64,000 nt of DNA from a virus. The notes beneath the pieces were generated by a model. It did no database searches. It was not told the origin of the DNA and worked only from the letters and a program-made list of their open reading frames with translations. Within the stretch, counting starts at the first letter, position 1. Every line of letters begins with the position of its first letter. Positions 9,112-63,726 of this stretch are shown piece by piece. The translations under genes and the position numbers were made by a program. The stretch lies in UHGV virus genome UHGV-1440165; one strand, written 5' to 3'.

Positions 9112-9444
9112 CTATTTTGAAACGCCGACAAAGTCCTGGGCAATTCCCCGACAATACATCAGGTCGGTCTTCGTTTGTGGGCTGTTTTCTGCCGCCGACA
9201 TCATCATTGGCAGGTCCAGCGCATTCTCTATCTGGTCAACGCTGAACAGGTCAAGGCGCTTCAGCTCTCCCTCGAAGTCGGACAGGAGAATAGACGTGTC
9301 TTTGTCGTCCGGATGGAATTGCTGATACGTCTCCATCCAGGCAGCGCATGTATTCAGTTTGGACGGCGGGGCGGCATGTACCCCGCCGATATAGGCAACC
9401 ACGACAGCCAGGATTAACAAGAGGATGATTTTACGAGTCATCAT
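9112..9444 (-). CDS. Small secreted or membrane-anchored protein
   Basis: 110 aa; N-terminal MMTRKIILLLILAVVVAYIGGVHA reads as a signal peptide or signal anchor. Confidence 0.5.
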   Translation of the reverse strand: MMTRKIILLLILAVVVAYIGGVHAAPPSKLNTCAAWMETYQQFHPDDKDTSILLSDFEGELKRLDLFSVDQIENALDLPMMMSAAENSPQTKTDLMYCRGIAQDFVGVSK

Positions 9445-10127
9445 TCGTTCTCCTTCATCATGTTATCACAGTCGACACGAGTCTGTTGCAGCTCACGCGA
9501 CATACGAGGATCGTCGAGGTTCACACTCAGATTCGTGGCCAGATCTTTCAGGCCGTTCTGAACACGATCCTCATAATAGTGGTCGTTCTCAACCAGCCAG
9601 GCTCTGAGGCCAAGAGCGCGGGTACGCCATTGTTTCTTCAGAACACGGTCGGTTGTTTGTTCGGCACTGTACTCAAAGACCTTGATGCACTGGTTGCCAT
9701 CGTCGATAAGGTTCAGGTGACGGCGGCCAATCTGCACACCCTTCTGTAATGCCGGAGAAGGGAGCGAACGGCACTGTCTGACGGTCATGCGTCCTTGGGT
9801 GCCCATACGCCCAGTCATGATCAGATCGCTGGCCTCCATGCCTCCACGGTTAAATTCGTCGTCATTGAGGTAGCCCTTGAGGTTATAGGCTCCCTGTTTG
9901 TATCGGTTGAACTCAATCCCGGCATTGACAACAGCGGTGGAGACGTTGCCTGTGTTCCAGAGTTCAGCAAAGTTCTCTATGGATCCAGACTTATCGATTG
10001 CGACTGCCTGGGAGAACCCAGCGCAGTAGGAAAGATCAGACCACAGTTTGTCACCTGTGGTGTTCAGCTTGGCAGCGGCAGGGAGTGCCAGACCTGCAAG
10101 CACAACCCCAAGGATTAAACGTTTCAT
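9441..10127 (-). CDS. Secreted protein (signal peptide)
   Basis: ATG at 10127 preceded by AAGGAG; MKRLILGVVLAGLALPAAA is a signal peptide; mature part contains Cys residues. Track start 10193 is an upstream extension. Confidence 0.55.
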   Translation of the reverse strand: MKRLILGVVLAGLALPAAAKLNTTGDKLWSDLSYCAGFSQAVAIDKSGSIENFAELWNTGNVSTAVVNAGIEFNRYKQGAYNLKGYLNDDEFNRGGMEASDLIMTGRMGTQGRMTVRQCRSLPSPALQKGVQIGRRHLNLIDDGNQCIKVFEYSAEQTTDRVLKKQWRTRALGLRAWLVENDHYYEDRVQNGLKDLATNLSVNLDDPRMSRELQQTRVDCDNMMKENE

Positions 10128-10211
10128 GGTGATTCTCCTTATTTCATTGGATGAAATGATAGGCGGCTCACCATGCTGAGTAAAGGGTTTCAATAAACTA
10201 TCGTATTCAGA

Positions 10212-10661
10212 TTAGTACCGACTATCACTGACCGTCCGGTACTTCACACCCTTGAACTGCTTGGCAACCTTGACGAACTCCATCGCAGGCATGTCCACTT
10301 TGTAGACCTTGATGCGCTGACGGTCATCCATGTTCAGAGCAGCCACATAGCGGTGGGAGCCGTCGACCACATAGTTATCAGAAGACACCCAAACCCGACC
10401 CATGGGCTTCTTGTTTCTGATGTTCTTCATGATCTTCCAGACCTTCATCTTGTTGATTTCGTTCTGGGTGAGACGGAGCGATTTGATAGGAACCTGGCCA
10501 GCATCGATAGTGATGCCGAGTTCCTCCAGGTAGTCATGGAAGGCATCCTGTTTGTCATCGTCGATTTGTGGCATAGAAGAACGCGAAAGCCCGAGGTTTC
10601 CAACAGGAATCCTCAGGCCGTTGATAATGTTCAACCAGTCTATGAAGGAAGACATGAACAT
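10212..10661 (-). CDS. ParB-like nuclease domain protein (putative)
   Basis: Contains VVDGSHRYVAAL, resembling the ParB/sulfiredoxin-fold DGxHR motif; ATG at 10661 with GAGGTGA RBS (track start is GTG at 10670). Confidence 0.4.
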   Translation of the reverse strand: MFMSSFIDWLNIINGLRIPVGNLGLSRSSMPQIDDDKQDAFHDYLEELGITIDAGQVPIKSLRLTQNEINKMKVWKIMKNIRNKKPMGRVWVSSDNYVVDGSHRYVAALNMDDRQRIKVYKVDMPAMEFVKVAKQFKGVKYRTVSDSRY

Positions 10662-10804
10662 GAGATTCACCTCGGGATATGAATTATCCCTTAGTTAGTC
10701 GTGAAATGTCTTGGCGAGAAACCTCCCGACATATTCACAAAAGGCAATGATCACTAAACCCAATCCGCAACCAATAAGCCAACCCCAAAATTCAATGTCC
10801 ACCA

Positions 10805-13168: not shown

Positions 13169-15370
13169 TTAGATTTTGATCTCTTTCTCTGCCAGTTCGG
13201 CAGTGACCTTGTACTTCACGCCATCCACTTCAACTTCCATGGTTGACTCTTCCAGGTCGAGGTCGGTGAACCAGCCATGGCCAGCAACGATACCATACAC
13301 CACTTTAGACAGCGTCTTGTTCAGGGCGCGGACTTCAGTGATGGCCGCCTTGGCAGCAGCGTCGATCCAGTTTTCGATCAGCTGTTTCTGTACGGCTTCA
13401 GGCACAGCAGTAATAGCCGGGGACTTCACGAATGCGTCGTATTCTTTCAGTGCATTGGCGATGAACATATCACCCGCATTGAGAGCCTTTTTATCAGCAA
13501 TCTTCTTCTGTACCGCAGCGATGGACGGCAGAGAAGACGCCCCGGCGATCTTAACGTTCAGCTCACGGCTCATGTAGACGTCCGTGGAGTCCTTCAGCTC
13601 GGTCTTCGGTGAGAAGCCATAATCGCGGATACCAACACTAGACAGGTATTCTGCGGCCGCAGCGCCGTACTGAATAGCCAGACCTTTGGCATTACCCTTA
13701 CCAACCAGGGCGTCGCGATAGAACTTCAGTACCTTCTGCTTGCCTTTCAGGGCTTCCAGGCGAACGTTGTCGGCAAAGAACTGTGCAGCACTGATGTTCT
13801 TGACCATCGCACGGTTGACCAGCGGTACGCTTTCCAGGTTCAGAATGAACACTTCCGGACCAACGAACACGTGGACGCCCATTTCGATCAACTTCTGCAC
13901 AACTTCGATATCAGCCTTGAACGGCAGGGTCTTCACATTGATGATGCCGTCTTTGACGATGGTGTAGTTGCGCCACTGGAATGTGTCCAATTCTTCGGGT
14001 AGACCGAACTTCTTCTGAGCGAATTCGGGCACCGCCACAGTTCCATGCTGGATTGTACGCACACTGATGTTCGGGCGCTCAGAGTTATAGACCAGGTCGC
14101 TGATTGAGATCACGCCCAGATCGTTAGCAGGTTCAAACGACGGTGTCCACTCTTCGTGCTCAGCCAGCTTGAGAGCGAGGGCTTTACGCTCTTCTTTGGA
14201 CTTGGCGTTCGCGATTTCTTCCGCCAGCTTGTCTTCGGTATCATCGGCTTTCTGCACAGTACCGCGACCAATGCTCTTGTAGGAGAACATCGGGTGCTTG
14301 GTGGCAACAGACACGCCAGCTTCGGCCAGGTACGTCAGCACATCAACGACAGTGGTCGCATCTTCAGCCGGAACCATATTGTAGTCGATACCGTCCACGC
14401 CGCGCAGCTGATCATCAACGATGGCCTGGGTCAGATCAACTTTGATGTTGGAGTAGTCCTGCTTGGTGAAGCAGTTGCTGTACTGTTTGATGAAGCGGAC
14501 GTCGCCCGTTTTCTTCAGCGCAGCCCACACCAGGTCGGCGTCCATGATGTGTACGCCGTAGAACGCCAGCACGTATGCTGCCTGGATGTCCGTCAGCGCA
14601 TCAAGCTGGTCGATCATGTTAGGGTTGACGACCCACAGCTTCGTGACGCTCTCAGGGATGCTCACGTGGCCGATAGGATGGTCTTCATCCGGCTGTACCG
14701 CCAGCACGGTTGCTACGCCGTTTTCAACGTAGATGGCGTGAGTGTACACCACAGGAACGTCAACACGAACCTTCGGCACCGAGGACTTCAACACGTTTTC
14801 CAGCTCAGTCTGATATTCAGTCTGTCCTTCGGCGAACACGTGAGTCGCGCCGGAACGCTCGGACATCTGGGCCAGGAGTTCGCGGTTACAGTACCAGCCG
14901 TATTCGATAAAGGTGATGTTATCGAAAACAAATGGCAAGGTTTCGGCGACGGCCAGGATTTCATTGGAGCGCCAGCAGTTGTCATAACCATCGGTCATGA
15001 ACGCCAGGTTGTTGACGTAGCCGGGTTTCTTCAGGCTACGCGCAGTATCTACCGCGAGACCCAGGGGTTCGACGAAGCCAGTGCAACCGGATGGTTGCAG
15101 GAAGCGGTCGATCAGTTTGTTCAGCTCGCTCAGGTCAGACGCAGCACTGACCTGGCGGCCAGCGAACACAGTACCAAAGTCGCCACGGGATGAGAAGTAC
15201 AGGAGGCTCACTGTGTCTTCCGGTTTCACCAGGGAAGGCAGGTTCTCCTTCAGGTGCTTACGGACTTCAGGGAGCGCCCGGTACATGGAACCGGAAATGT
15301 CCACAACGATTACATGGTTGGACGGGGCAGCAGTCGCAACCGCATTCTTAAACTCCAGGGATTCAATCAT
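13169..15370 (-). CDS. von Willebrand factor A (vWA) domain protein
   Basis: MIDAS-type motif VVDISGSM near the N-terminus and later TDGYDN; about 733 aa from ATG at 15370 (MIESLEF...). Track start 15433 overlaps a small upstream ORF. Confidence 0.65.
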   Translation of the reverse strand: MIESLEFKNAVATAAPSNHVIVVDISGSMYRALPEVRKHLKENLPSLVKPEDTVSLLYFSSRGDFGTVFAGRQVSAASDLSELNKLIDRFLQPSGCTGFVEPLGLAVDTARSLKKPGYVNNLAFMTDGYDNCWRSNEILAVAETLPFVFDNITFIEYGWYCNRELLAQMSERSGATHVFAEGQTEYQTELENVLKSSVPKVRVDVPVVYTHAIYVENGVATVLAVQPDEDHPIGHVSIPESVTKLWVVNPNMIDQLDALTDIQAAYVLAFYGVHIMDADLVWAALKKTGDVRFIKQYSNCFTKQDYSNIKVDLTQAIVDDQLRGVDGIDYNMVPAEDATTVVDVLTYLAEAGVSVATKHPMFSYKSIGRGTVQKADDTEDKLAEEIANAKSKEERKALALKLAEHEEWTPSFEPANDLGVISISDLVYNSERPNISVRTIQHGTVAVPEFAQKKFGLPEELDTFQWRNYTIVKDGIINVKTLPFKADIEVVQKLIEMGVHVFVGPEVFILNLESVPLVNRAMVKNISAAQFFADNVRLEALKGKQKVLKFYRDALVGKGNAKGLAIQYGAAAAEYLSSVGIRDYGFSPKTELKDSTDVYMSRELNVKIAGASSLPSIAAVQKKIADKKALNAGDMFIANALKEYDAFVKSPAITAVPEAVQKQLIENWIDAAAKAAITEVRALNKTLSKVVYGIVAGHGWFTDLDLEESTMEVEVDGVKYKVTAELAEKEIKI

Positions 15371-51496: not shown

Positions 51497-54400
51497 TTAC
51501 GCCAGAGCAATCAGGCGGAAATCCTTGAACGATGGAGGAGCCACACGGTTGCCACGAACCAGCGCTCTCACCTTCACGGCAACGAACGGATTCGTCGCGC
51601 TCACAGTCTTGTCGTACTCGTACTCGAAGAATGTGGATCCATCGTTCACCAGAGGCGACAGAGGTGTCACGGTTTCCCATGCCACGCTATCCATATCTTG
51701 ACCTGCACGGAGCAGTTTGACCTGCACGGCCATGGTTGACTGCGACGGCAGCATTGCACCAAAGTATAGCTTAATGGTCGAACATGGGTTATCAAATCCG
51801 ACGTCTTTGGTGATGTAGCGGAACACGTCTTCAAATGGATCAACCCCGAAGGTGTTGAAGACCACTGTGAAGTCGTCTCCGTCAACCATTGGCGCAACGA
51901 AGTTGTTGGACTCACTGCGCGTCATGGTAGCCCGAACCTGGAAGTCGCCCACCTGACGATAGATGCCCTCTGTTGGGAGGTACACGTTCGTCTCGGATTC
52001 GAACTCAATCCAATCGGACATTGAATTGGAGGTCGCATCACGGTAGCGGTATTCCAGTTTTAGAATTGAACCTTCCAGAGCCGAGTTCGTGGCGCTGCCA
52101 TAGAACATATCGACCAGATAGTTCCCCAGGTACGAAGCGTCATCACCACCAATTTGTCCGCTGGAGGTAGCCGCCGCGCCCACATCGATGGTGAAGTTGC
52201 TGAACGCAGCATCAGTCACGACATGTGTTTTGTTCAGTTGCTCTGGAGTAAACCCACAGCCGCCTGTCAGGCCGGACAGGGTCACACTGTTGCCCGCAAC
52301 CAGACCGTGGCCAATCGCATCGATCACGATTGTTGAAGCGCCCGAGGTGCAGTTCAACTCATTCAGACCCAGAGGGCGAGGCTTCGGACCAGCTTTCACA
52401 TCGAAGGTGACGATGTTTGCACCAGCATTGAAGTTCGCGCGATACACACGGAATTTCAGGTCTGCCATCTGGTTTGGAGACCAGGTGCTTCCGTTTGAAG
52501 ACGTGAAGAACACGCCAGTGTACGGCTGCTTGGCGATATACTCGTTGGACAGAAGGTTCTTCTTGCCCATCTCTGCGATATATGCGTTGTAGTCCTGAGT
52601 GTTCGCCAGCAGAACGATAGCGAATTCAGTACCAGCCTGCAGATACACAGGGTAATCGAACGTGAACTTCGTAGCCGTCTCAGAGTTGTTGGAGACATTC
52701 ACCTGGTCCGGAGTCAGCGTCTTACGAGTGATCACGCTGTTAGACGGCAGACCGTTGGACATCTCGCGGATCTCCAGTGTGATCGGCACATCACGCGATT
52801 TCGTGGACAGGAAGACTTCCACACCTTCGATGTACTCACCACCGACACTGCTCTGCACCATGAAGGACTGAGCAATCGGGTCTTTCCACTTCTTGATCAG
52901 TTCAGTGTTAGAAGTGGTTTCAGTACTGGAAGACGCGGTGTAACCCAGAACACGGGTGTTCAGATAAGTCTTCTGGATACCCTGTTTCTTGCCGAAAGAT
53001 TTGTGAACAATTTCGGCATTGGTCAGAGTGTCATCGGCAGACTTGCTGTCAACCGGGCTATCCGTCAAACGGAACACGTTATCGCCAGTGTTGAAGCGGT
53101 CTGTTTCTGTCACAGGCACACGGAACACACCTTTGACAGTACCGCTGGCATCTGTCATCAGGGGATCGCCGAAGTTACCAGACTCAGGCTTACAGAACGC
53201 ACTGACAGCACGATTTGAGAAGAACGCATACATCTGGGTGAACGGACGCAGGCCGCTGCCTTCAAACGCGATGTCAGACTGACGCATATACGGGATGACC
53301 TGAGTCTCCACAATCTGCTCGCCAGTCATGGTCGTGGTTGTTGTATCAGTGTACGTGTAAGTGATCACATCACGGGTAGACACTGTGGTGCGGTAGCGGT
53401 AGCCCCACTTGCCGACCTGGGTCTGGTATTCGGTTGTAGAAGAAGTCTTCCACGTACCGTAAACGGAACCCGGCTGGATAGCCCCACGAGTGTTGATCGT
53501 TTCGTTGATCACACGCGGTGCGACATAATAGTTCTCAAACCAGTAGTCGGTGGTCGGGTTCAGTTTGATGTAGCCTTCCCAGTTGAACACGGCGTATGGG
53601 TTCACGTTGATGGTGGTAGTCGCATATTCCTGATTCACAGAGATTTCAGGAGTGTAACGACACACAACCATTCCATCCATAACCTTATCCCAGTTCACTG
53701 GAGTCAGGTCAACGGCATTCTGCTGAGTGAACGGGCGTAGACGACCATTGTCGGTATCAACAGAGCCCATCCAGTCGGAAGACAGATCGTCAATCAGACG
53801 GAAGTCTTTGAACGGGTCGGCGGCGATACCATTTTTGAATCGTGGGTTGCCAGTGATAGGGTCGAACACCTGCTGGGTCATGGCTGATGATTCCAGCTGA
53901 GACAGGGAGGTGTAATATTCGACGTTAGAAATACGCGTCTCCAGCTTCCCGATATCACGCATCGTGTAGCGGCGGTTGTCGACAGTGCGAATCTGGATAT
54001 CGTCGATGTCAGCCGTATACGGCGGGATCAGCATCTCATACAAGCGCATGGCGTTGTCTGGGATAGCCGGGGCTGCCAGGTTGTTGGAGCTGATACCACG
54101 AGCGATGTTGAACACGCCGTTTTCTGCCAGGTACACAGCATCAATTCGAGGCAGATAATACTCTGTGTCCAGGATTACAGCCGTGTTCGGGCGCACCATA
54201 TCGGTATCTGAAGTCCCGTTGGCAATCTTCGGACGGAAATCCAAAGAATCTGCCAGGCTGTACACGGTCCCAGAAGTGCGGGATGTGTAGGTCGGGATAT
54301 CCTGGTAGTCGATAGAGGAGTACGAGTCCGCGGAGAAGAAGTCCCCGGCGCTGTGAGCGAAGTATGAGTACACCACTGTGAAAGTGCCTGAGATTGCCCC

Positions 54401-56320
54401 TGCAGCGGAATTCAACGTGGATGGATAGTAACCCGCATCGCGCTGCCCGCCGTCCAGGGTAAATCTGTTGGTCACATCGGCGCCAGTAGAGTCTTTCACA
54501 CTGATAAGTTTGTACCCGTCCAGGTTAGTCAGAGCCACAGACGTGGAAGAAGTGAAGGTCACTGTTTGAGTCACTTCAGTCACTGTCTTGGTTTTGATGT
54601 TTGCCGTCGTGCGCACCATCATCGCCAGAAGGCTGATCGTCTGGTTGGCATAACTCGCACCCAAGGAAATCTGCAGAGCAGAACCCACCGGAGTACCAGT
54701 CAGTGCCAGGCCAGAGGAAATGTCGAACTGAGCTGTCGTGCCGTCTGCTTTTGCTGCAGAGTACAGAGAAAATTCAGGACTGAAGCTGTATCCCAGAGGA
54801 GCAGAAATCGAACCGGAGCCAGTTGCGCCCAGAGTAACCTTGTAGGTGCGCAGAACCGAATAGTTGATGTCGATCACACCGCTCGGAGCAAGGGTCTTAA
54901 CACCGCTCACAGGCAGAGGGAACACCAGATCGATTGAAGAACTCTGAGAGAACTGGTTCGACTCCAGGTCTGCAGAGAACATGGTTGTGCCACTTTCTTC
55001 ATAAGCGATCTTGGTCACAGTGGACATGTCACCAGTCACCGTCAGGTCACGCAGGTAAAGTTTGAATTCTGTACCAGTACGTTCGGCCGAGATACACAGA
55101 GCAGTTGCCTGAAGGACGCTGGAGGCGTTCAGGAGCTTGTAACGGATAGTGCGTGAGATAACCGGGACGCCCTTGGAGTTCTTGGACACCAGATAGTTCC
55201 CGGTTGCCACAGCCACAGGCGTGTTGTTCAGTACTTCAGTGTCACGGGCTTTGTCGACGTTCACCAGGACTTCACCCAGGTTTTCGATACGACGACCACG
55301 AACATAGGAGACCCCCGGCTTCATAACAGCCACGAACTTGCTTGAATCACCACCTTCGGCTGGGGTATACACGCCGCCGTTGTTGTTCTGTTTCAGGTGT
55401 TCGCGCAGGTCGATCTGGTGCGGAGAAACGTTGTAGTCACCTGATTCTTCATAGGTGCGCTGCGCCATCGTGTCTTCGAGGATATTGTAGGTGGACTGTG
55501 TCACCATGGACTGAATACGCCCATCTTTGACCTTAGCCAGTTCCACAAAGTCCGGCACTTGTTCATCGTAGCCGAAAGCCTGGAGAACCATATCGATACG
55601 GAGACGATGCGCGCCCGGCGCTTTGGAGTTCGGAGTACCCTGAGCATTGGAGTACAAACTCTCATCTTCTGCTTCGGTGACGATGGTCTCGGTTACTTTG
55701 AACCCAACTCGATGTGAAGACGTGTTGGATGTCTTGTCCACGATTAGAGTTGCTGGCTCAACGTCCAGGAACATACCACGAACAAAGTACACGCCACGAG
55801 TCATGCGCGCAACAATAGAACCGCCGACAGTGGCAGCAACACCATAACCGATGCGAATAAAGTTATTGTTGACGTCATAGGTGTTGAAGTACAGGTTGTC
55901 ACCAGCTTCGAAGCCGTCAGAGTTCCCGCTTTCGGTCATCTCCAGAATGGCGTACATCGTGTCTGGTTCAGTAACATAGCGCTCCAGGGACAAGACGCGA
56001 GCCTTCGCATTGTTGTCCTTACCCAGGACATACAACTCCGGGATGTTTTCCAGATCAGTGAATTCAGTACCGCCTGCCAGAGTGAACTTCATGGATACCG
56101 CAGAGTTCGTGATCGTCAGGCCGCCGGGGATAACCATTGATCCGTCTTTGAACAGATGATTCCCAAGTTTCTCCAACTGGTCTTGGAAGATGGTCTGCAT
56201 CTGGTTCAGTTCGCGAGTCTGGATTTTGACCGGAGCTGGACGGAATAAGATGCGTGAAAAACGCTTCTCAGGGTTCCAGTCATCCCAGTATGGGCGACGG
56301 TTTAGATTCATTTCTTGCAT
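51497..56320 (-). CDS. Giant virion structural protein (1607 aa), putative tail/baseplate or adhesin component
   Basis: Single uninterrupted ORF with ATG start and upstream late-promoter-like motif; T/S/G/N-rich composition typical of fibre or baseplate proteins; no specific motif recognised. Confidence 0.55.
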   Translation of the reverse strand: MQEMNLNRRPYWDDWNPEKRFSRILFRPAPVKIQTRELNQMQTIFQDQLEKLGNHLFKDGSMVIPGGLTITNSAVSMKFTLAGGTEFTDLENIPELYVLGKDNNAKARVLSLERYVTEPDTMYAILEMTESGNSDGFEAGDNLYFNTYDVNNNFIRIGYGVAATVGGSIVARMTRGVYFVRGMFLDVEPATLIVDKTSNTSSHRVGFKVTETIVTEAEDESLYSNAQGTPNSKAPGAHRLRIDMVLQAFGYDEQVPDFVELAKVKDGRIQSMVTQSTYNILEDTMAQRTYEESGDYNVSPHQIDLREHLKQNNNGGVYTPAEGGDSSKFVAVMKPGVSYVRGRRIENLGEVLVNVDKARDTEVLNNTPVAVATGNYLVSKNSKGVPVISRTIRYKLLNASSVLQATALCISAERTGTEFKLYLRDLTVTGDMSTVTKIAYEESGTTMFSADLESNQFSQSSSIDLVFPLPVSGVKTLAPSGVIDINYSVLRTYKVTLGATGSGSISAPLGYSFSPEFSLYSAAKADGTTAQFDISSGLALTGTPVGSALQISLGASYANQTISLLAMMVRTTANIKTKTVTEVTQTVTFTSSTSVALTNLDGYKLISVKDSTGADVTNRFTLDGGQRDAGYYPSTLNSAAGAISGTFTVVYSYFAHSAGDFFSADSYSSIDYQDIPTYTSRTSGTVYSLADSLDFRPKIANGTSDTDMVRPNTAVILDTEYYLPRIDAVYLAENGVFNIARGISSNNLAAPAIPDNAMRLYEMLIPPYTADIDDIQIRTVDNRRYTMRDIGKLETRISNVEYYTSLSQLESSAMTQQVFDPITGNPRFKNGIAADPFKDFRLIDDLSSDWMGSVDTDNGRLRPFTQQNAVDLTPVNWDKVMDGMVVCRYTPEISVNQEYATTTINVNPYAVFNWEGYIKLNPTTDYWFENYYVAPRVINETINTRGAIQPGSVYGTWKTSSTTEYQTQVGKWGYRYRTTVSTRDVITYTYTDTTTTTMTGEQIVETQVIPYMRQSDIAFEGSGLRPFTQMYAFFSNRAVSAFCKPESGNFGDPLMTDASGTVKGVFRVPVTETDRFNTGDNVFRLTDSPVDSKSADDTLTNAEIVHKSFGKKQGIQKTYLNTRVLGYTASSSTETTSNTELIKKWKDPIAQSFMVQSSVGGEYIEGVEVFLSTKSRDVPITLEIREMSNGLPSNSVITRKTLTPDQVNVSNNSETATKFTFDYPVYLQAGTEFAIVLLANTQDYNAYIAEMGKKNLLSNEYIAKQPYTGVFFTSSNGSTWSPNQMADLKFRVYRANFNAGANIVTFDVKAGPKPRPLGLNELNCTSGASTIVIDAIGHGLVAGNSVTLSGLTGGCGFTPEQLNKTHVVTDAAFSNFTIDVGAAATSSGQIGGDDASYLGNYLVDMFYGSATNSALEGSILKLEYRYRDATSNSMSDWIEFESETNVYLPTEGIYRQVGDFQVRATMTRSESNNFVAPMVDGDDFTVVFNTFGVDPFEDVFRYITKDVGFDNPCSTIKLYFGAMLPSQSTMAVQVKLLRAGQDMDSVAWETVTPLSPLVNDGSTFFEYEYDKTVSATNPFVAVKVRALVRGNRVAPPSFKDFRLIALA

Positions 56321-56360: not shown

Positions 56361-56416
56361 GTATACAGCCAACCGAGGAATAGAAAGAAATAAGCCCTCC
56401 GAAGAGGGCTTAGTTT

Positions 56417-56896
56417 TCATGTCGTACTCCATTGAGACACCCTGATAAGCCATGCAGACACACCCAAACCTCCGGTGGTGGTGGGCGTTTGTCCTGGGTC
56501 GACTGTCTTTGGAAGTGAGCCGCCCCAACGATATAAAGAAGTTCCGTCGCTGACGACTTCGTTTTTCACGCGAATGGTGAATCCAGAAGTGAAATCTTCA
56601 GTCAGAACCACGAACTCTTCCCGAAGCACGGCGAGTGCTCCGAGATCTATAGTTCCTGCAGAGTGCACAAGAACTCCATCTATCAGGCTGGTGATGGTAG
56701 CGCCAGCGGGCAGGTTAGAAGGCAATGCATAGGAGCGCTGAGACACCTTATCGTAGATCACCTTGTAACCAGTCAGGGTGGATCCTGGTTTAGCATACAG
56801 AACCTCGGACTTCTTGCACCCGAACTTGCGTGCAATAGAGTCCTTGTTGGTCTCTTTCGAGACCGCACCTTTCGGCTGTGAAAATTGCGGATTCAT
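56417..56896 (-). CDS. Hypothetical structural protein
   Basis: 159 aa, ATG start; between tailspike genes and the giant ORF. Confidence 0.4.
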   Translation of the reverse strand: MNPQFSQPKGAVSKETNKDSIARKFGCKKSEVLYAKPGSTLTGYKVIYDKVSQRSYALPSNLPAGATITSLIDGVLVHSAGTIDLGALAVLREEFVVLTEDFTSGFTIRVKNEVVSDGTSLYRWGGSLPKTVDPGQTPTTTGGLGVSAWLIRVSQWSTT

Positions 56897-57058: not shown

Positions 57059-59497
57059 TTACCAAGACCAAAGATTACCATTGGTATCACAGTTTCCAGT
57101 AGCAACAACCTTAGTCAGACCAGAACCACCCCTAGTCTGGAAGATGTTACCAGTAAGGTTAACAAGTGAGGTGTTTCCATAAGATATATTAATATCTTCA
57201 GAATACCCATAAACTATATTAGCTGACACAGTTGCAATTGCACGGCTATCCGAGTTTGTATTATCCAACCTGATACCATACTGACCAGGTGATACTGATG
57301 CATGTACAATCTGGTTGTTACTGATATTAACGTTACCAACGCTGCGAATATTACCAACAGTAAGAGCGGTATATGCCCCAGGAGTTGGTGCAGTAAACAG
57401 CATTTGATTGCCATTAAAGGAAAACCACCGCAAGCCTTGGGTTGTTGTGGTATTGGTAGTTGTTGTAACTTGGATGTTTTCAAACTGGTTATTATCAATC
57501 TTAACAGTTGCACAGGATTTAATGTGCAGAATTGCCTGCTTATTAAATGAAGTAAACTTGTTATTGACAAAGCTAACTGAAGTTAGTACATCTTGGTCTT
57601 GTTCATAATAAATACCACCAATTGATGTATACTCTGATGGGTTATTAAGAACAGCCGTGTTACCATCAAAGATAACACCCTTGCAAAGACCAATAGCAAC
57701 TAAGCAACCATTTAGTGCATCCTTGGTGTTATTACCTACAGCTACAGAATCAGTACAACTCTCAAAGTCAATGCACACATCTTTGCAGCCATCAACAGCG
57801 TTGCCAGTGATAGTAACCCTATCACCCATAGCACCCCAAATGCCACCTACGGCATTACGTACAGTGTTACCAGAGATTGTTACGTCATTACACTTACGAG
57901 GCTTAGTCATGTCATAGCCCTCATCTGCTTTAAGTGCATCTCCACCAACGAACTGGATACCTTCCTTGTGACCATCAATGTAATTACCGCTAATACGCGC
58001 CATCTTTGCATATGCAGTATAGATTGCAGCTGGTCTGAATGGCGCCCCAAGCACACCATCACCACTACCATAAGACTGACAGTTTACAACTTCAATGTTA
58101 GTACAGTAATCTGCATCCGTTGTAATAAGTGGATATGCACTACCAGCACCAAATCCAATATCATGTGCAATCATGGGGTTTGGACACTTACGAGACTTAG
58201 TAGAGAATAGCGCCATTATCACAGAGACACAGTTACGCATTGAAACATTGTTACAGGAGACTAAGTTAACAGCTGGTGCAAGTGATACACTAGATGCGGC
58301 ATCAAACCTAAGACCTTTAAAAACTATGTTAGATTTCTCAATACCTGTAAATACAGCTTGCCCCTCTTTATCAAGCGTCACCTTGATAATGGCATTATTA
58401 CCACTATGTATCTGGTTAGATTCGAGCATAAGTACACCAGAGTCAACAAGATAAGTACCAGCTGGGTAATCTATCTTGCGTGCACCAGATAATATTGCAG
58501 ATTGAAGGGCTGCGGTATCATTTGTAACACCATCACCGATAGCCCCAAAGTCACGAATGCTGATCGTCTCCAGTAGTTTGTCATGAACTGTACGTGAGAC
58601 GGCACTTGCTAACGGCTGTTTCATCCCTATCAGGGCATCACCTAATACAACGTTAGTAGTGTCCACAAGGTCGTCGCGTAGGTTAGGGTCAGTTTGCGGA
58701 ATCCAATCCGCAGTACCGACCGGGTTAGCCCCTGCGGCTATGACGTGCGGCAACGTCCCGGCCCATGAGTACCACGTCTTACTCACAGGGTCATACACTA
58801 CCTTATTACGGTCGTTAACACCGAGTGTACCTCCAGTATAGAATGTAAACCCAGCGTCAGTGTAGCCATTTTCAATCGCCCAATTAAGTTTTAATTTAAC
58901 CAAGTCAGTATCAATATCATTAAGTTCTTCCTGTACAGTTTGACCGGAAGACGTACCAATCAGACTTGCGCCTCCATCGGAAGAGAGCGCCAGGTAATTC
59001 TGCTTAATGGACATTTCTGCCACGACCCAAACTCCAGCCGCAGGCGAACCTGTGAGGAAACTCACAACTCCTGTTGTGCTGTTGTAGCTGTAGTTGACGC
59101 CAGGAACCTGGAACCGCCCATCGACGTACAGGGACTGCACCCCATAAGATGTGAAGTCTGGGGTGAATGAGGTCTCGTTGCCAACGGCCTGGAATTTGTA
59201 GATGCGGATCCCGTTTTCATAATCTTCTGGGGACAGGATCTTGTCAAACAGACAGTACACTACATCATCAGCCTCCAGCGCTCGACCGAGGTTGACTGTG
59301 TTGCCATCGATTTCGTAATTGTCTACGGGAACCTGAACTCCACCATTGATGGTGATGAAGCCTGTAACGGGATAGAACGGGAGGGAGATAAACGTCTCTC
59401 CACCCGTTGCTGTGTAAGTGTATGGAATCTGGTGCGGGGCTGTTACAACCGCTCCAAAGATGCTCTCGACGTTTCTGGTCATTTGAAGATACCCCAT
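57059..59497 (-). CDS. Tailspike protein with pectate-lyase-type right-handed beta-helix (putative depolymerase)
   Basis: 812 aa; IRDFGAIGDGVTNDTAALQSAI (about 58493..58558) is the hallmark N-terminal motif of pectate-lyase-superfamily beta-helices; N/T/G-rich repeats downstream. Confidence 0.7.
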   Translation of the reverse strand: MGYLQMTRNVESIFGAVVTAPHQIPYTYTATGGETFISLPFYPVTGFITINGGVQVPVDNYEIDGNTVNLGRALEADDVVYCLFDKILSPEDYENGIRIYKFQAVGNETSFTPDFTSYGVQSLYVDGRFQVPGVNYSYNSTTGVVSFLTGSPAAGVWVVAEMSIKQNYLALSSDGGASLIGTSSGQTVQEELNDIDTDLVKLKLNWAIENGYTDAGFTFYTGGTLGVNDRNKVVYDPVSKTWYSWAGTLPHVIAAGANPVGTADWIPQTDPNLRDDLVDTTNVVLGDALIGMKQPLASAVSRTVHDKLLETISIRDFGAIGDGVTNDTAALQSAILSGARKIDYPAGTYLVDSGVLMLESNQIHSGNNAIIKVTLDKEGQAVFTGIEKSNIVFKGLRFDAASSVSLAPAVNLVSCNNVSMRNCVSVIMALFSTKSRKCPNPMIAHDIGFGAGSAYPLITTDADYCTNIEVVNCQSYGSGDGVLGAPFRPAAIYTAYAKMARISGNYIDGHKEGIQFVGGDALKADEGYDMTKPRKCNDVTISGNTVRNAVGGIWGAMGDRVTITGNAVDGCKDVCIDFESCTDSVAVGNNTKDALNGCLVAIGLCKGVIFDGNTAVLNNPSEYTSIGGIYYEQDQDVLTSVSFVNNKFTSFNKQAILHIKSCATVKIDNNQFENIQVTTTTNTTTTQGLRWFSFNGNQMLFTAPTPGAYTALTVGNIRSVGNVNISNNQIVHASVSPGQYGIRLDNTNSDSRAIATVSANIVYGYSEDINISYGNTSLVNLTGNIFQTRGGSGLTKVVATGNCDTNGNLWSW

Positions 59498-59518
59498 AGA
59501 GGATTTGCCAATATGGGG

Positions 59519-59525
59519 TATTTAG
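59519..59525 (-). promoter_or_regulatory. Late-promoter-like motif (GACTAAATACCCC)
   Basis: About 22 nt upstream of the 59497 start. Confidence 0.45.
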
Positions 59526-59549
59526 TCTAAAGAACGATTTGTAGATTTA

Positions 59550-62504
59550 TCAAATTATGCAATAACTAATAACCCCAATTGCTGTAGATGCGGCATCATT
59601 TGCATTCATTGCAATCATCACATTAAGTCCAGAACCTACGTTCTCTCGGCTCAGTATTACTTCACCTTCTCGCCCAAAATCGCTTTTTATAACAACAGGC
59701 GAGGATGGGTTATTTACATTGTTGATGGTTATTGAAGCGCTTACTTGTGTGTTTCCTGATGCAGCATTTGTCGGTACGGACACAATGTTATATTTAATGT
59801 AACATTGATGTCCATATGGAACGTTGAAAAAACCAACGTTCTTAGAGACATCACCAGTAACAGCTGTGTTTAATGTAACCTTCCCATCTTCTTTGAAGCC
59901 ATTGTAACCTTTCCAATCTGATTCAATCATACTGAAAGGAACTGGTCCGAGTTTTCCATCAGTACCAGAGTAACAGTTACTGCTAGAGAAGATGAACTGG
60001 CGTGAGTCAAATTCAGCAGGTCCAGTAGGTGCCTGGATATATAGAACCTTATTTTTAGTTTGAGCGAATCCATTACCAGTAATTAACAGTGGGAATGGGA
60101 AACCTCCACTTAGTGCTGTTGTTGATTTCTGCACCCAGATATCATATCCATTGAACAGGAAGCAGTTACCAATAATGGTCTTAGAGCCTTCTGAGGCCGG
60201 ATTGCCCACAGATGCCGGGATAGTGAAGTTAACCCCAATAGGGTTATTTTCAATCTGTGAACCACTCATATAGAAACTGGTATTCCACCCCGCAACAATA
60301 CCCACTGTTGTGTTTTCTGAAATGGTGCAGCCAATAATCGACTGAGAGCCAGCAAAGGAAAACTCGCTGAGTGATAAGCCACGACCGTTAAGAACGAACT
60401 CACACCCAAAGAAACGGTTTTGGTCAGAACCACCTTCGGCAGAGCCATCTACCTTATCGATGTTACAGCCCGTGGAGCACCACAGGGCGTGCACGTTATA
60501 GAAGTTGTTGAGGTAAACAACACCCGCTAACTTAATACCAAAATCAAAATAACGGATATGAAGACCACTGAAGTTGTTCTCACGAACATGGAAAACTCCG
60601 GCATTCACCGTTTCGTCAACAGATACCCCACAGTACCCATTAACGTTAAGATCTGGCCCCTCTAACATCAAATCCTGTATTTTTACACCAGTTATCCCAT
60701 AATCGAATCGATATCCATCTAGCACAGGCACCAGTTTAAAAATGTCATTATGACCCACTGCCTTAAAGCATGGCATCTGTTTACGAGCTACGGTGGATCC
60801 GCCGTCACCAACAATTTTGATTGGCTTGTTGATGGTGATCGCAGATGAAATCTTATACATAGACTTTGGTGTAGGCACGATGAGCGTACCACCCCACGGG
60901 GTAGCATCAACAGCAGCCTGGGTTGCTGCCGTATCATCAGTACTACCATCACCAGTGGCAAACCAACCAAGGTTAACAGCACCAACTGTTTGGCGTTTCC
61001 AACGTAAACCTGTAGTGTCTACTAAGATGGTCCCCCCATTATCAGCAGAAGTCGCATCAGTGGGGTCGGATTCAAAGATACCAAATCCGCCATCGTATTT
61101 ATTAACCTTTCCTAGACTGTAAACTCGACCATTAACTGGATTTGTATTGGCACGAACATCTGCATAATTGGCAGCACCAATCAAACCAAACCCCAATTTT
61201 CCTGCCAGATTTTTTCTCAACTCGGTTGCCGAGTCGGCAACATCCAAAAGAGTGACTGTCGTGTTCGTACTGCCAACGACATATGTCAGCTGATTACCAG
61301 AGACACTCACAATAGATGCCGTGGTTGGGATGCCCGCTGGGAGTCCCCAAGATTTCTGCGCGACCACGTCATAGATGACGGTCTTACCATTCAGCTTGGT
61401 GATCGTATCAGAACTGAGGATCACCTGAGAGACAGGCACGTTAGCTGCCCGAGCAACTTCATTTGGGGTACGGTCAATCTGGTTGTACAGGGTCGGATCA
61501 CCGTTGATGACAACAACCACTTCATCACCCGCATCCAGCTCATCCGCAAGTGTGATCAGCTTCGTCGTGGAATTATACTGGAACCCAAGATTCTTTTGCT
61601 GGCGTGTGCCGTTGATAAAGATCTCAGACACTTCTTCTGCGTCGACGTCCAGTGTAATTGTTGTCTCGCCGCCTACCGCCGAGCCAGAGTTGTACACCCA
61701 AGTGATGACAGTACCGCCGCCGGAACCACTACCGCCTGCTCCGAGTTGGATAGGGACATACTGGATGATCTGCAATTCTGAACCAGAGGTCAGAGCTGGG
61801 CTGAAATTAACATTGTAGCCATCCAGGGAATACTTGGAATCCAGCAGGCGCTTGCCATCGACGTAGACATCAACGATAGATGGCTGGGTCGCCAGCGTCA
61901 CCTGAGTCGTGTCGGTGGCCAGGGTTGTGGTGAAGATTGTACGGCTGTACACGCGCCCTTGCCCCAGACCAACTCCAGCAGTGACGATCCAACCACGAGC
62001 ATCACCAGACCAGGTGAAAGTGGCAGACACGCTATCCGTGGATAATGTCATCGGTTCAGTAGAACCATAGATGGCATAACCGTTCGGATCGATGGTGAGA
62101 GGATAGACGGAGAATTTACCGTACAGGTCGCATACAGTAACAGAGTCGCCAACGCGCGTAGGATCCGGAAACACCACCGTAGAGACGCCGGAAGAGTTAT
62201 CCACCAGATAGCCCCGCCCTTCAGCCAAAGTTGCCGTAGAGGCATGAGGAAGCACTTCCCAGCGGATACCTCCACCACCCAGAGGTAGCCAACCCCCGTT
62301 CTCGTAATAACCTTCGAATTCGTCGGACGCAGAATTGTATCGAACAGCGGAAGGAAGACCATCCACAGCATCACCTTCAGGGACGGTCATCACCGCATCC
62401 GGTCCATGTTCGATGATACCAGTGTTGAGGACACCAGCCAGTTTAGATTGCTCAGCAGTTTCAAGCCCGAGAGGGAAAATCGGCTGTGTTGGTTTGTTAG
62501 CCAT
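59550..62504 (-). CDS. Tailspike protein with pectate-lyase-type beta-helix (second, distinct)
   Basis: 984 aa; VNLGWFATGDGSTDDTAATQAAVDA motif mid-protein; long N-terminal region preceding the beta-helix. Confidence 0.7.
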   Translation of the reverse strand: MANKPTQPIFPLGLETAEQSKLAGVLNTGIIEHGPDAVMTVPEGDAVDGLPSAVRYNSASDEFEGYYENGGWLPLGGGGIRWEVLPHASTATLAEGRGYLVDNSSGVSTVVFPDPTRVGDSVTVCDLYGKFSVYPLTIDPNGYAIYGSTEPMTLSTDSVSATFTWSGDARGWIVTAGVGLGQGRVYSRTIFTTTLATDTTQVTLATQPSIVDVYVDGKRLLDSKYSLDGYNVNFSPALTSGSELQIIQYVPIQLGAGGSGSGGGTVITWVYNSGSAVGGETTITLDVDAEEVSEIFINGTRQQKNLGFQYNSTTKLITLADELDAGDEVVVVINGDPTLYNQIDRTPNEVARAANVPVSQVILSSDTITKLNGKTVIYDVVAQKSWGLPAGIPTTASIVSVSGNQLTYVVGSTNTTVTLLDVADSATELRKNLAGKLGFGLIGAANYADVRANTNPVNGRVYSLGKVNKYDGGFGIFESDPTDATSADNGGTILVDTTGLRWKRQTVGAVNLGWFATGDGSTDDTAATQAAVDATPWGGTLIVPTPKSMYKISSAITINKPIKIVGDGGSTVARKQMPCFKAVGHNDIFKLVPVLDGYRFDYGITGVKIQDLMLEGPDLNVNGYCGVSVDETVNAGVFHVRENNFSGLHIRYFDFGIKLAGVVYLNNFYNVHALWCSTGCNIDKVDGSAEGGSDQNRFFGCEFVLNGRGLSLSEFSFAGSQSIIGCTISENTTVGIVAGWNTSFYMSGSQIENNPIGVNFTIPASVGNPASEGSKTIIGNCFLFNGYDIWVQKSTTALSGGFPFPLLITGNGFAQTKNKVLYIQAPTGPAEFDSRQFIFSSSNCYSGTDGKLGPVPFSMIESDWKGYNGFKEDGKVTLNTAVTGDVSKNVGFFNVPYGHQCYIKYNIVSVPTNAASGNTQVSASITINNVNNPSSPVVIKSDFGREGEVILSRENVGSGLNVMIAMNANDAASTAIGVISYCII

Positions 62505-62556: not shown

Positions 62557-63726
62557 TTAGAAAGAAGCGACCAGATTGTAGTCTACTGTGCACGCTGTTG
62601 ATGTGTTCGCATTCGTTATTATCAGACGAAGTTTTGAAGCTACAACCGAACCCGCAAATGTGATTGTTCCAGAAGTTGATTTCTGAATCAGTAACTCAGT
62701 CTTAATAGTTCCGTCTCGAGTGATCGTGACACGATACGTATCGACAACGTTACCAGTGCCCCATTGGGCTGCAACCAATACCTGGCAAAGGTTCACCAGG
62801 TTGAAATCAGGCAATGCCGTGTTACCTGAAGCAGCGATGGTGATACCGCTCGGGTTCGTCTTACCAATCGTCACACGGGCAGCATCAGCCGCATCCAGCG
62901 CCGCCATCTTGGTGTTGTAGGTTGAGGTGTCCACCTTAGCAGCGATGCTGGCATCCAAAGACGTCATCTTCGTATTGTACGTGCTGACATCCACTTTACC
63001 GGAAGTCAGGCTAGCAATACTCGCGTCCAGTGAAGTCATCTTGGTGTTGTAGGTCGATGTGTTGACCTTGGCAGCCAGAGTTGTGTTCACAGTGTTGAAC
63101 TGAGACTGAATATCCAACATATCCGCGTCATAGTCAACAACTTTCACGTAATCATTGAATCTGTTGTCTGCAAACACGGCGTTGAAAAATGCTGTGGTAT
63201 CATACTTGACCGTGTCAACACCACTGGTCATCAACATCTGCGCTGGGGCACCAGAACCGGAATATGATGGCAAGTTGGTCCCATCGATTAAGAGTTTGTT
63301 GTACCCTCCAGGGAGCAATTCGATCCGCAGGCCGGAATTAGATCCAGCAGTGTCTTCGCTAACACCGTGTTTGCGCAGCATTGAAAGGTTGACACCATCG
63401 GTGGAATCAATCGGTTCATCCGTGATGGTCAGTTTCTTCCCCGTGGGGACACTGACACCTCCGAAAGCCCTGATCTCAGCCGCAAAGGTTTTACGACCAT
63501 TGATCGTTTGCTCGCCGCCATCAGTTCTGATAACCTTGGTGCTCAGGGTATCATTGATGGTGTCCACCGCAACCTTGAGCTGATATGTCAGATGCGAAGA
63601 TGCGGGGAATAGAGCATCATCCACCGCGAAATCGTTGGTTATATCGTTCTTGCTCACCTTCTCGTCAACAGACCCAAGAATCTGATCAATCTGCTGACCT
63701 GTGTAACGACTCAGGAAATCGGCCAT
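62557..63726 (-). CDS. Tail fibre-like protein with internal tandem repeats
   Basis: 389 aa; three tandem 21-aa repeats (STYNTKMTSLDASIA...) in the middle; T/S/N-rich. Confidence 0.5.
   Translation of the reverse strand: MADFLSRYTGQQIDQILGSVDEKVSKNDITNDFAVDDALFPASSHLTYQLKVAVDTINDTLSTKVIRTDGGEQTINGRKTFAAEIRAFGGVSVPTGKKLTITDEPIDSTDGVNLSMLRKHGVSEDTAGSNSGLRIELLPGGYNKLLIDGTNLPSYSGSGAPAQMLMTSGVDTVKYDTTAFFNAVFADNRFNDYVKVVDYDADMLDIQSQFNTVNTTLAAKVNTSTYNTKMTSLDASIASLTSGKVDVSTYNTKMTSLDASIAAKVDTSTYNTKMAALDAADAARVTIGKTNPSGITIAASGNTALPDFNLVNLCQVLVAAQWGTGNVVDTYRVTITRDGTIKTELLIQKSTSGTITFAGSVVASKLRLIITNANTSTACTVDYNLVASF
62878..63072 (-). repeat. Three tandem 63-bp in-frame repeats inside the fibre gene
   Basis: Near-identical nucleotide repeats encoding V(N/D)TSTYNTKM(T/A)(S/A)LDA... 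Confidence 0.7.

What the first reader, a model, noticed from the sequence alone, without database searches (positions are those of the whole stretch)
57059..62504. Two distinct tailspikes carrying pectate-lyase-type beta-helix signatures
Both large proteins contain the F/W-G/A-x-GDG-x-T-D/N-D-T-A-A-x-Q-x-A motif that opens pectate-lyase-superfamily beta-helices. That implies two different polysaccharide depolymerase specificities (capsule or O-antigen), hence a potentially broad or switchable host range. Together with the repeat-containing fibre and the 159-aa protein this resembles the multi-tailspike arrangement of ViI-like phages.
Basis: partly seen in the sequence, partly recalled or inferred. 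Interest (0 to 1): 0.5.

Follow-up and report, generated by a model that had tools for sequence, protein, structure and literature searches.

The report
Two tailspikes of an Agtrevirus phage
The two large genes are the TSP4 and TSP2 tailspikes of a ViI-like (Ackermannviridae, Agtrevirus) phage, each carrying a different sugar-cutting beta-helix; this is a known reduced two-spike layout, so the finding is correct but ordinary.

Summary
The GDGxT(D/N)DTAAxQxA motif occurs exactly twice in the six-frame translation of the window, once in each large ORF. Both ORFs pass Pfam's threshold for PF12708. AlphaFold2 models show the motif as the loop and cap helix that open a right-handed parallel beta-helix.

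The window is an Agtrevirus phage, about 97% identical in nucleotides to Salmonella phage pSal-SNUABM-02. The 984-aa ORF is the TSP4 orthologue (anchor plus XD1-XD3; PDB 7REJ, E=4e-149). The 812-aa ORF is the TSP2 orthologue (XD2-XD3; PDB 6W4Q, E=1e-75). The 159-aa ORF is a TSP1 stub holding only the N-terminal docking domains, and TSP3 is absent.

The literature already records this two-tsp layout for pSal-SNUABM-02 and ZQ1. The one new detail is that the TSP4 receptor-binding module differs from that of pSal-SNUABM-02. It is 93% identical in nucleotides to a tailspike on a contig related to an N4-like Enterobacter phage, from the same metagenome project.

The two modules share only the cap motif, so two specificities are likely. 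Nothing suggests a switch. Enzymatic activity and the receptors remain inferred. Low interest; new member of a known kind.

The parts
59550..62504 (-). TSP4 orthologue, 984 aa. Domains: anchor domain plus XD1-XD3 (aa 1-338), TD region (about aa 345-510), cap motif (aa 515-531), beta-helix (about aa 540-855), C-terminal beta-sandwich (about aa 876-983).
   Evidence: PDB 7REJ/7RFO/7RFV (CBA120 TSP4-N), E=4e-149 over aa 1-338. phrog_9383 'tail protein', 1e-278. PF12708 at 28.1 bits. AF2 model of aa 440-984, pLDDT 91.9. Foldseek top hits are phage tailspike depolymerases.
61491..62504 (-). TSP4 N-terminal baseplate anchor plus XD1, XD2 and XD3 assembly domains (aa 1-338).
   Evidence: This part is 94% identical in nucleotides to pSal-SNUABM-02 TSP4 over nt 1-1160 of the gene.
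59550..61187 (-). TSP4 receptor-binding module (aa 440-984). It is swapped relative to pSal-SNUABM-02.
   Evidence: Nucleotide similarity to pSal-SNUABM-02 ends at gene nt 1160 (protein-level similarity fades by about aa 533). The module is 93.4% identical in nucleotides to an 870-aa tailspike on contig L005. There are 99 homologues, mostly Enterobacter, Citrobacter and E. coli prophage tailspikes. Among isolated phages only Escherichia phage PSK8 matches, at 46%.
60912..60962 (-). Cap motif FATGDGSTDDTAATQAA in TSP4.
   Evidence: Regex scan. In the AF2 model it is a loop followed by helix H86-95 immediately before the first beta-helix rung. F76, G79, G81 and A92 are invariant, and D80, D84, D85, Q90 and A95 nearly invariant, in a 43-sequence alignment.
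57059..59497 (-). TSP2 orthologue, 812 aa (probably 807 aa from M6 at nt 59482). Domains: XD2-XD3 (aa 6-200), TD (aa 212-261), cap motif (aa 317-334), beta-helix (about aa 341-785).
   Evidence: PDB 6W4Q (CBA120 TSP2), E=1.3e-75 over aa 6-200. PF12708 at 37.3 bits, PF13229 at 35.7 bits, PF18668 at 30.6 bits. 97.8% aa identity to pSal-SNUABM-02 gp107 and 94.7% to P46FS4 ORF4. AF2 pLDDT 82.1. Foldseek gives beta-helix hits.
58496..58549 (-). Cap motif FGAIGDGVTNDTAALQSA in TSP2.
   Evidence: Regex scan. In the AF2 model it maps to strand E33-37 and helix H39-46 just before the first rung.
56417..56896 (-). 159-aa TSP1 stub. It holds the N-terminal tandem docking domains (TD1/TD2) only, with no beta-helix.
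   Evidence: PDB 4OJ5 (CBA120 TSP1) residues 1-152, E=8e-45. PF18668 at 55 bits. 100% identical to pSal-SNUABM-02 gp108 and 81-82% to the first 150 aa of the full-length TSP1 of P46FS4 and Ag3. About 2 kb is deleted relative to P46FS4. An AGGAG RBS lies upstream.
56391..56412 (-). Intrinsic-terminator-like hairpin ending the tsp cluster, directly after the stub's stop codon.
   Evidence: Nine-pair stem TAAGCCCTC/GAGGGCTTA followed by a T-run.
62557..63726 (-). Conserved 389-aa protein upstream of tsp4 (Ag3 orf00214 homologue) with three imperfect 60-72-nt repeats at 62881-63075. Function unknown.
   Evidence: phrog_3838, 4e-184, unknown function. 98% identity to pSal-SNUABM-02 gp105 and 78% to Ag3 orf214. 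Repeats.
51497..56320 (-). VriC-like 1607-aa structural protein, the conserved flank that marks the end of the Ackermannviridae tsp cluster.
   Evidence: 99.75% identity to pSal-SNUABM-02 gp109. The P46FS4 homologue is annotated VriC. PF16075.

Best explanation
The region is the tail-spike gene cluster of an Agtrevirus (Ackermannviridae, ViI-like) myovirus in its reduced, two-spike form.

Inferred assembly, by homology to CBA120:
- The 984-aa TSP4 anchors to the baseplate through its N-terminal anchor domain.
- Its XD2 domain binds XD2 of the 812-aa TSP2, giving a branched complex with two trimeric spikes.

Inferred function:
- Each spike ends in a different right-handed parallel beta-helix, opened by the GDGxT(D/N)DTAA loop and cap helix.
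- Each helix binds, and most likely cleaves, a different O-antigen or capsular polysaccharide.
- The virion can therefore use two surface glycans.

The other positions in the cluster:
- TSP3 is absent.
- TSP1 is reduced to a 159-aa stub made only of the TD1/TD2 docking domains. It is either a deletion remnant or an inert occupant of the XD3 docking site of TSP4.

Origin of the TSP4 receptor-binding module: it was acquired by recombination in the TD region from the tailspike pool shared with N4-like podophages and P22-like prophages of Enterobacter, Citrobacter and E. coli. The TSP2 module is the one found in Salmonella phages pSal-SNUABM-02 and P46FS4.

Shown here: gene order, domain homology, fold, mosaic junctions. 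Inferred: trimerisation, complex assembly, enzymatic cleavage, identity of the receptors.
For: - Taxon and synteny: 97.3% nucleotide identity to pSal-SNUABM-02 with the same gene order, hyp389, TSP4, TSP2, 159-aa, VriC.
- Same flanks as Ag3 and P46FS4, which carry four tsp genes.
- N-terminal assembly domains: TSP4-N 7REJ, E=4e-149. TSP2 6W4Q, E=1e-75. Stub against TSP1 4OJ5 residues 1-152, E=8e-45.
- Beta-helix: PF12708 above threshold in both. AF2 pLDDT 91.9 and 82.1 with long runs of short strands after a cap helix.
- Foldseek probability 1.00 to tailspike depolymerases AM24, K2-2 TSP, CBA120 TSP2/3/4, Sf6, HK620 and phi29 gp12.
- The modules are distinct: only the cap motif aligns.
- Mosaicism: gene nt 1-1160 is 94% identical to pSal-SNUABM-02, and nt 1319-2951 is 93.4% identical to the L005 tailspike.
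- The L005 backbone is 93% identical to Enterobacter cloacae phage vB_Ecl_SABI.
- Literature: the branched TSP complex model and the statement that pSal-SNUABM-2 and ZQ1 encode only two tsp genes (PMC10791037, PMC11721090). A recombination site in TD1 is proposed in PMC8432352.
Against: - No enzymatic or binding data exist for either module. The nearest solved structures share only 12-16% identity, so catalytic residues cannot be assigned and hydrolase versus lyase is open.
- The PF12708 match covers only the N-terminal cap region of the profile, and the 984-aa score (28.1) is barely above the cut-off (27).
- Some Ackermannviridae TSPs, such as CBA120 TSP1 initially, had no identified substrate, so a spike may be binding-only or have no receptor on the relevant host.
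- Host assignments rest only on where homologues occur.
Confidence: 0.85

Rival explanations
1. Only one of the two spikes is a working depolymerase. The other is a binding-only or vestigial beta-helix retained because its N-terminal XD domains are needed to build the complex.
For: The XD2-XD2 interaction of TSP2 and TSP4 is the structural core of the complex (review PMC11721090), so both genes would be kept whether or not they have activity. No catalytic residues could be assigned. The cluster is already decaying: TSP3 is lost and TSP1 is truncated.
Against: Both modules have many intact, diverged homologues with conserved acidic residues along the helix. In the 43-sequence alignment of the TSP4 module D191, D244, E313, E333, D394 and E433 are invariant. 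The TSP2 module is conserved at 94-98% in two isolated Salmonella phages. The TSP4 module was recently acquired, at 93% nucleotide identity to another phage's spike, which suggests selection for a functional receptor-binding domain.
Confidence: 0.1
2. The 159-aa TSP1 stub is a selected structural component, a cap for the XD3 docking site of TSP4 that stabilises a two-spike complex, rather than a deletion remnant.
For: - The ORF is intact, has an AGGAG RBS, and is followed directly by the cluster terminator.
- It ends exactly at the TD2/beta-helix boundary.
- It is present at 100% identity in pSal-SNUABM-02 and at 96% in another 159-aa sequence. A 149-aa analogue exists in Salmonella phage SP1.
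- dN/dS against full-length TSP1 N-termini is 0.16-0.17.
Against: - dN/dS mixes time before and after the deletion.
- The stub lineage carries about twice as many unique amino-acid changes (13 against 6 and 6), which fits relaxed constraint.
- Many short hits may be frameshift or assembly artefacts.
- The deletion could simply be recent.
Confidence: 0.3
3. The locus provides a switchable host range, with alternative expression of the two spikes.
For: None found beyond the presence of two different spikes.
Against: Both genes lie on the same strand in tandem, 52 nt apart. There are no long inverted repeats, no tandem repeats, and no invertase or DGR features in 56-64 kb. In the CBA120 model all TSPs are displayed at once.
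Confidence: 0.02

Closest known systems
Salmonella phage pSal-SNUABM-02 (MT857002, Agtrevirus) tsp cluster, gp105-gp109
   Same: Same gene order and the same reduced layout. hyp389 is 98% identical, TSP2 97.8%, the 159-aa stub 100% and VriC 99.75%. The TSP4 N-terminal 387 aa is 94% identical in nucleotides. The literature describes it as encoding only two tsp genes (PMC10791037).
   Different: The TSP4 receptor-binding module differs. In pSal-SNUABM-02 TSP4 is 1011 aa, and its C-terminal module is a 42.5%-identical paralogue of the TSP2 module. Here TSP4 is 984 aa and carries an unrelated module.
Escherichia phage CBA120 (Kuttervirus) branched TSP1-4 complex (PDB 7REJ, 6W4Q, 4OJ5, 5W6H, 6NW9)
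   Same: The anchor/XD1-XD3 of TSP4, XD2-XD3 of TSP2 and TD1/TD2 of TSP1 are all recognisable by sequence. The beta-helix receptor-binding modules have the same fold.
   Different: CBA120 has four complete spikes. Here there are two plus a stub. The receptor-binding modules share no sequence similarity beyond the fold (12-16% identity).
Shigella phage Ag3 and Salmonella phage P46FS4 (Agtrevirus, four tsp genes)
   Same: Same flanking genes and N-terminal domains. The P46FS4 TSP2 (ORF4) is 94.7% identical over its full length.
   Different: They keep a full-length TSP1 (594 and 820 aa) and a TSP3. The window lacks TSP3 and has about 2 kb deleted from TSP1.
Tailspike of an N4-like podophage contig (L005, ENA BRIT16-1; backbone 93% identical to Enterobacter phage vB_Ecl_SABI), and P22-like or PF18668-type prophage tailspikes of Enterobacter roggenkampii, Citrobacter freundii and E. 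coli
   Same: The receptor-binding module of the 984-aa TSP4 is 96% identical in amino acids and 93% in nucleotides to the L005 spike, and 50-80% identical to the prophage spikes.
   Different: The N-terminal attachment domains are entirely different: PF09008 P22 head-binding, or PF18668 alone, against anchor plus XD1-XD3.

Membership tests
Ackermannviridae TSP4 | N-terminal baseplate anchor domain followed by gp10-like XD1, XD2 and XD3. | tested here: met
   phmmer against PDB: 7REJ/7RFO (CBA120 TSP4-N), E=4e-149, query aa 1-338 aligned to chain 1-336.
Ackermannviridae TSP4 | First tsp gene of the cluster, between the baseplate-wedge side and vriC. | tested here: met
   Gene order matches pSal-SNUABM-02, Ag3 and P46FS4.
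Ackermannviridae TSP4 | C-terminal beta-helical receptor-binding or catalytic module. | tested here: met
   AF2 pLDDT 91.9. Foldseek probability 1.00 to tailspike depolymerases.
Ackermannviridae TSP2 | N-terminal XD2 and XD3 domains without an anchor or XD1. | tested here: met
   6W4Q (full-length CBA120 TSP2), E=1.3e-75, query aa 6-200 aligned to chain 1-193. 85.6% identity to Ag3 orf210 over aa 1-285.
Ackermannviridae TSP2 | Beta-helical receptor-binding module. | tested here: met
   PF13229 and PF12708. AF2 pLDDT 82.1. Foldseek beta-helix hits.
Ackermannviridae TSP1 (tested on the 159-aa ORF) | N-terminal TD1/TD2 docking domains. | tested here: met
   4OJ5 residues 1-152, E=8e-45. PF18668 at 55 bits.
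Ackermannviridae TSP1 (tested on the 159-aa ORF) | Beta-helix receptor-binding module C-terminal to TD2. | tested here: not met
   The ORF stops 7 aa after the TD2 homology. About 2 kb is missing relative to P46FS4 TSP1. It is a stub, not a tailspike.
Four-spike ViI/CBA120-type arrangement | Four complete tsp genes (TSP1-4). | tested here: not met
   Only 52 nt separate TSP4 and TSP2, so there is no TSP3, and TSP1 is truncated. This matches the two-tsp variant reported for pSal-SNUABM-2 and ZQ1.
Pectate-lyase superfamily / PF12708 (Pect-lyase_RHGA_epim) | Score at or above Pfam's gathering threshold. | tested here: met
   37.3 bits (812 aa) and 28.1 bits (984 aa) against 27. Only profile positions 2-82 and 9-71 of 213 are matched.
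Pectate-lyase superfamily / PF12708 (Pect-lyase_RHGA_epim) | Right-handed parallel beta-helix with an N-terminal cap helix. | tested here: met
   AF2 secondary structure: cap helix H86-95 (TSP4 fragment) and H39-46 (TSP2 fragment), each followed by 30 or more short strands. Foldseek hits.
Pectate-lyase superfamily / PF12708 (Pect-lyase_RHGA_epim) | Identifiable catalytic acid/base residues and polysaccharide cleavage. | not testable with these tools
   The closest solved structures are 12-16% identical. Conserved acidic residues exist, but no mechanism can be assigned without experiment.

The most novel reading that the evidence does not exclude
Two readings remain open. First, the 159-aa TSP1 stub may be a selected 'plug' that occupies the XD3 docking site of TSP4 and stabilises a minimal two-spike complex. 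Second, the TSP4 module, shared at 93% nucleotide identity with an N4-like Enterobacter-type podophage contig in the same metagenome project, may give this otherwise Salmonella-type Agtrevirus a cross-genus host range (Salmonella plus Enterobacter or Citrobacter) acquired by very recent inter-family exchange.
Probability: 0.25. Interest if true: 0.35.

Novelty: new member of a known kind. Interest (0 to 1): 0.15.

Why it matters
The result adds little conceptually. Branched multi-tailspike complexes, modular swapping of receptor-binding domains at the TD region, and two-tsp Agtrevirus phages are all already described.

Its practical value is modest:
- It documents a new TSP4 chimera in an uncultured Agtrevirus. 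Its module circulates among P22-like prophages and N4-like phages of the Enterobacter, Citrobacter and E. coli group.
- That chimera is a clean natural example of exchange of a receptor-binding module between phage families.
- The module boundaries (aa about 387-440 in TSP4) could guide tailspike engineering or depolymerase cloning.

Tried and rejected
- NCBIfam scan of the four proteins: no hits.
- PDB sequence search for the two receptor-binding modules: only the cap-motif region matches anything solved, such as Sf6 TSP or AM24 TSP over about 55-90 aa. No receptor could be inferred.
- Tandem-repeat and inverted-repeat searches for a switching mechanism in 56-64 kb: nothing beyond chance-level 18-22-nt pairs and the three imperfect coding repeats in the 389-aa gene.
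- dN/dS and lineage-specific substitution counts to decide whether the 159-aa stub is under selection: inconclusive.
- The homologue search with the 159-aa stub returned only short proteins from 91 candidates. It cannot be used to estimate how common stubs are relative to full-length TSP1.
- PDB search with the 389-aa protein gave only weak, probably spurious ubiquitin hits over aa 83-125.
- My first tblastn of the TSP4 module failed because of a frame error in my coordinates. It was repeated correctly.
- A literature search for a primary paper on pSal-SNUABM-02, to learn its host serovar, found only reviews.
Full report
**Observation**

The region holds two tandem minus-strand ORFs, 59550-62504 (984 aa) and 57059-59497 (812 aa), separated by 52 nt. 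A six-frame regex scan of the whole window for GDG.[TS][DN]D[TS]AA.Q.A gives exactly two matches, one per ORF. They are WFATGDGSTDDTAATQAAV in the 984-aa protein and DFGAIGDGVTNDTAALQSAI in the 812-aa protein. Both proteins exceed Pfam's gathering score for PF12708 (rhamnogalacturonase A/epimerase, pectate-lyase-like): 37.3 and 28.1 bits against 27. The match is confined to the N-terminal third of the profile. The 812-aa protein also hits PF13229. The only imprecision is one extra residue between F-G and GDG in the 812-aa copy. The 812-aa ORF also probably starts at M6.

**What the locus is**

Megablast places the region in the Ackermannviridae, genus Agtrevirus. Salmonella phage pSal-SNUABM-02 is 97.3% identical over 76% of the query, followed by Ag3, P46FS4, MK-13 and EspM4VN, then Dickeya Limestoneviruses and many Kuttervirus records.

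The annotated neighbourhoods show the canonical tsp cluster, bounded by baseplate-wedge genes on one side and the VriC-like 1607-aa protein on the other. By sequence:

- The 984-aa protein begins with the anchor/XD1-XD3 assembly region solved for CBA120 TSP4 (7REJ, E=4e-149, aa 1-338).
- The 812-aa protein begins with the XD2-XD3 region of CBA120 TSP2 (6W4Q, E=1.3e-75).
- The 159-aa ORF at 56417-56896 equals residues 1-152 of CBA120 TSP1 (4OJ5, E=8e-45).

Relative to P46FS4, about 2 kb encoding the TSP1 beta-helix is missing. Nucleotide homology resumes 7 nt after the stub's stop codon, in the intergenic region before vriC. The stub ends at the conserved G-x-W that closes TD2. It has an AGGAG RBS and is followed at once by a nine-pair terminator hairpin. 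No TSP3 gene exists.

The window contig itself was found in an ENA metagenome assembly (BRIT16-1_SAMN02334140, 85-kb scaffold) with an identical gene order.

**Fold**

AlphaFold2 was run on alignments of homologues.

- TSP4 aa 440-984: pLDDT 91.9, pTM 0.84.
- TSP2 aa 290-812: pLDDT 82.1, pTM 0.86.

This is the N-terminal cap of a right-handed parallel beta-helix. The TSP4 module ends in a separate beta-sandwich (fragment residues 437-544).

Foldseek against the PDB gives probability 1.00 matches.

- TSP4 module: tailspike depolymerases AM24, Klebsiella K2-2 TSP, CBA120 TSP2 and TSP4, Sf6, Depo32 and others.
- TSP2 module: phi29 gp12, CBA120 TSP3 and TSP1, HK620, AlgE epimerases, GH28 exopolygalacturonases and RbmB lyase.

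Identities are only 9-19%. The fold is established, but the chemistry (hydrolase or lyase) and the substrate are not.

**Two specificities?**

The TSP2 module is found at 93-97% identity in the Salmonella phages pSal-SNUABM-02 and P46FS4. It is 41% identical to the tailspike of Salmonella siphophage Shemara and about 42% to Citrobacter and Enterobacter prophage proteins.

The TSP4 module is almost absent from isolated phages; the best match is Escherichia phage PSK8 at 46%. It has 99 homologues in genomes and metagenomes. Named ones are prophage tailspikes of Enterobacter roggenkampii, Citrobacter freundii, C. amalonaticus and E. coli. These carry P22-type (PF09008) or PF18668 N-termini.

At the nucleotide level the TSP4 gene is a mosaic:

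- nt 1-1160 is 94% identical to pSal-SNUABM-02.
- nt 1319-2951 is 93.4% identical to an 870-aa tailspike on a 75-kb contig from the same metagenome project (L005).
- The junction (aa 387-440) lies in the TD region.

The L005 backbone is 93% identical to the N4-like Enterobacter cloacae phage vB_Ecl_SABI. Sørensen et al. proposed the TD region as the recombination site for module swapping (PMC8432352; PMC10791037).

I infer that the phage can use two glycans: one typical of its Salmonella-phage relatives and one circulating among Enterobacter, Citrobacter and E. coli phages. This rests only on where homologues occur.

**Mechanism**

The mechanism is inferred from the CBA120 model (Plattner 2019 and Chao 2022, as summarised in PMC11721090).

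- TSP4 attaches to the baseplate by its anchor domain.
- The XD2 domains of TSP4 and TSP2 bind each other.
- XD3 of TSP4 would normally dock TSP1, and XD3 of TSP2 would dock TSP3.

Here both XD3 regions are still present, but one partner is missing and the other is a docking-domain-only stub. Whether the stub is incorporated is open. dN/dS against full-length TSP1 N-termini is 0.16-0.17, compared with 0.11 between full-length genes. The stub lineage has 13 unique substitutions against 6 and 6. This fits either mild relaxation or ordinary divergence. Similar short TSP-N proteins occur elsewhere, for example a 149-aa protein in Salmonella phage SP1.

**Switchability**

I found no invertible segment, long inverted repeat, tandem repeat or DGR-like feature in 56-64 kb. 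In the known model all spikes are displayed at the same time. 'Broad' host range is relative: this phage has fewer spikes than most relatives.

**Comparison and novelty**

The layout of two tsp genes plus a stub is the same as in pSal-SNUABM-02. The literature already notes that pSal-SNUABM-2 and ZQ1 encode only two tsp genes.

The only difference is the TSP4 module. In pSal-SNUABM-02 that module is a 42.5%-identical paralogue of the TSP2 module. In the window phage it has been replaced. This is a new member of a well-described kind: a new TSP4 subtype or chimera. Interest is low.

Noticed in passing
window 59550-62504; L005 8977-10609: The TSP4 gene is a nucleotide-level mosaic. Its 5' 1160 nt is 94% identical to pSal-SNUABM-02. 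Its 3' 1633 nt is 93.4% identical to a tailspike on a contig related to an N4-like Enterobacter phage, from the same metagenome project (BRIT16-1). The junction falls in the TD region (aa 387-440).
   Followed up: yes
window 56417-56896 and 56391-56412: The 159-aa ORF is a TSP1 docking-domain stub with an AGGAG RBS, followed directly by a terminator hairpin. It is 100% identical in pSal-SNUABM-02. Whether it is a functional cap or a remnant is unresolved: dN/dS is 0.16-0.17 and it carries 13 lineage-specific changes against 6 and 6.
   Followed up: partly
L001 (pSal-SNUABM-02) 9290-10732 compared with window 57059-58549: In pSal-SNUABM-02 the TSP4 receptor-binding module is a 42.5%-identical paralogue of the TSP2 module, which suggests two related receptors there. 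The window phage has lost that relationship through the module swap.
   Followed up: partly
window 59482-59497: The 812-aa ORF probably starts at the second ATG (M6, nt 59482). PDB 6W4Q residue 1 and PHROG position 1 align to residue 6, and the orthologues are annotated at 807 aa.
   Followed up: partly
window 62557-63726 (repeats at 62881-63075): The conserved 389-aa protein upstream of tsp4 (phrog_3838, unknown function) contains three imperfect 20-24-aa repeats (STYNTKMTSLDASIA...). It has no Pfam or NCBIfam hit. A weak and probably spurious similarity to ubiquitin repeats covers aa 83-125.
   Followed up: no
L002 (P46FS4) 13219-15226: In P46FS4 the TSP3 position is annotated as two overlapping ORFs: a 159-aa 'tail spike protein' and a 515-aa hypothetical protein with a 20-nt overlap. 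This looks like a frameshifted or split TSP3.
   Followed up: no
H66, PQ898399.1 (Enterobacter phage SonariX, 248,734 bp): A 249-kb record contains an 8-kb stretch with the same 93.3% identity to the query as the 76-kb N4-like phage vB_Ecl_SABI. The record may be a concatenated or mixed assembly.
   Followed up: no
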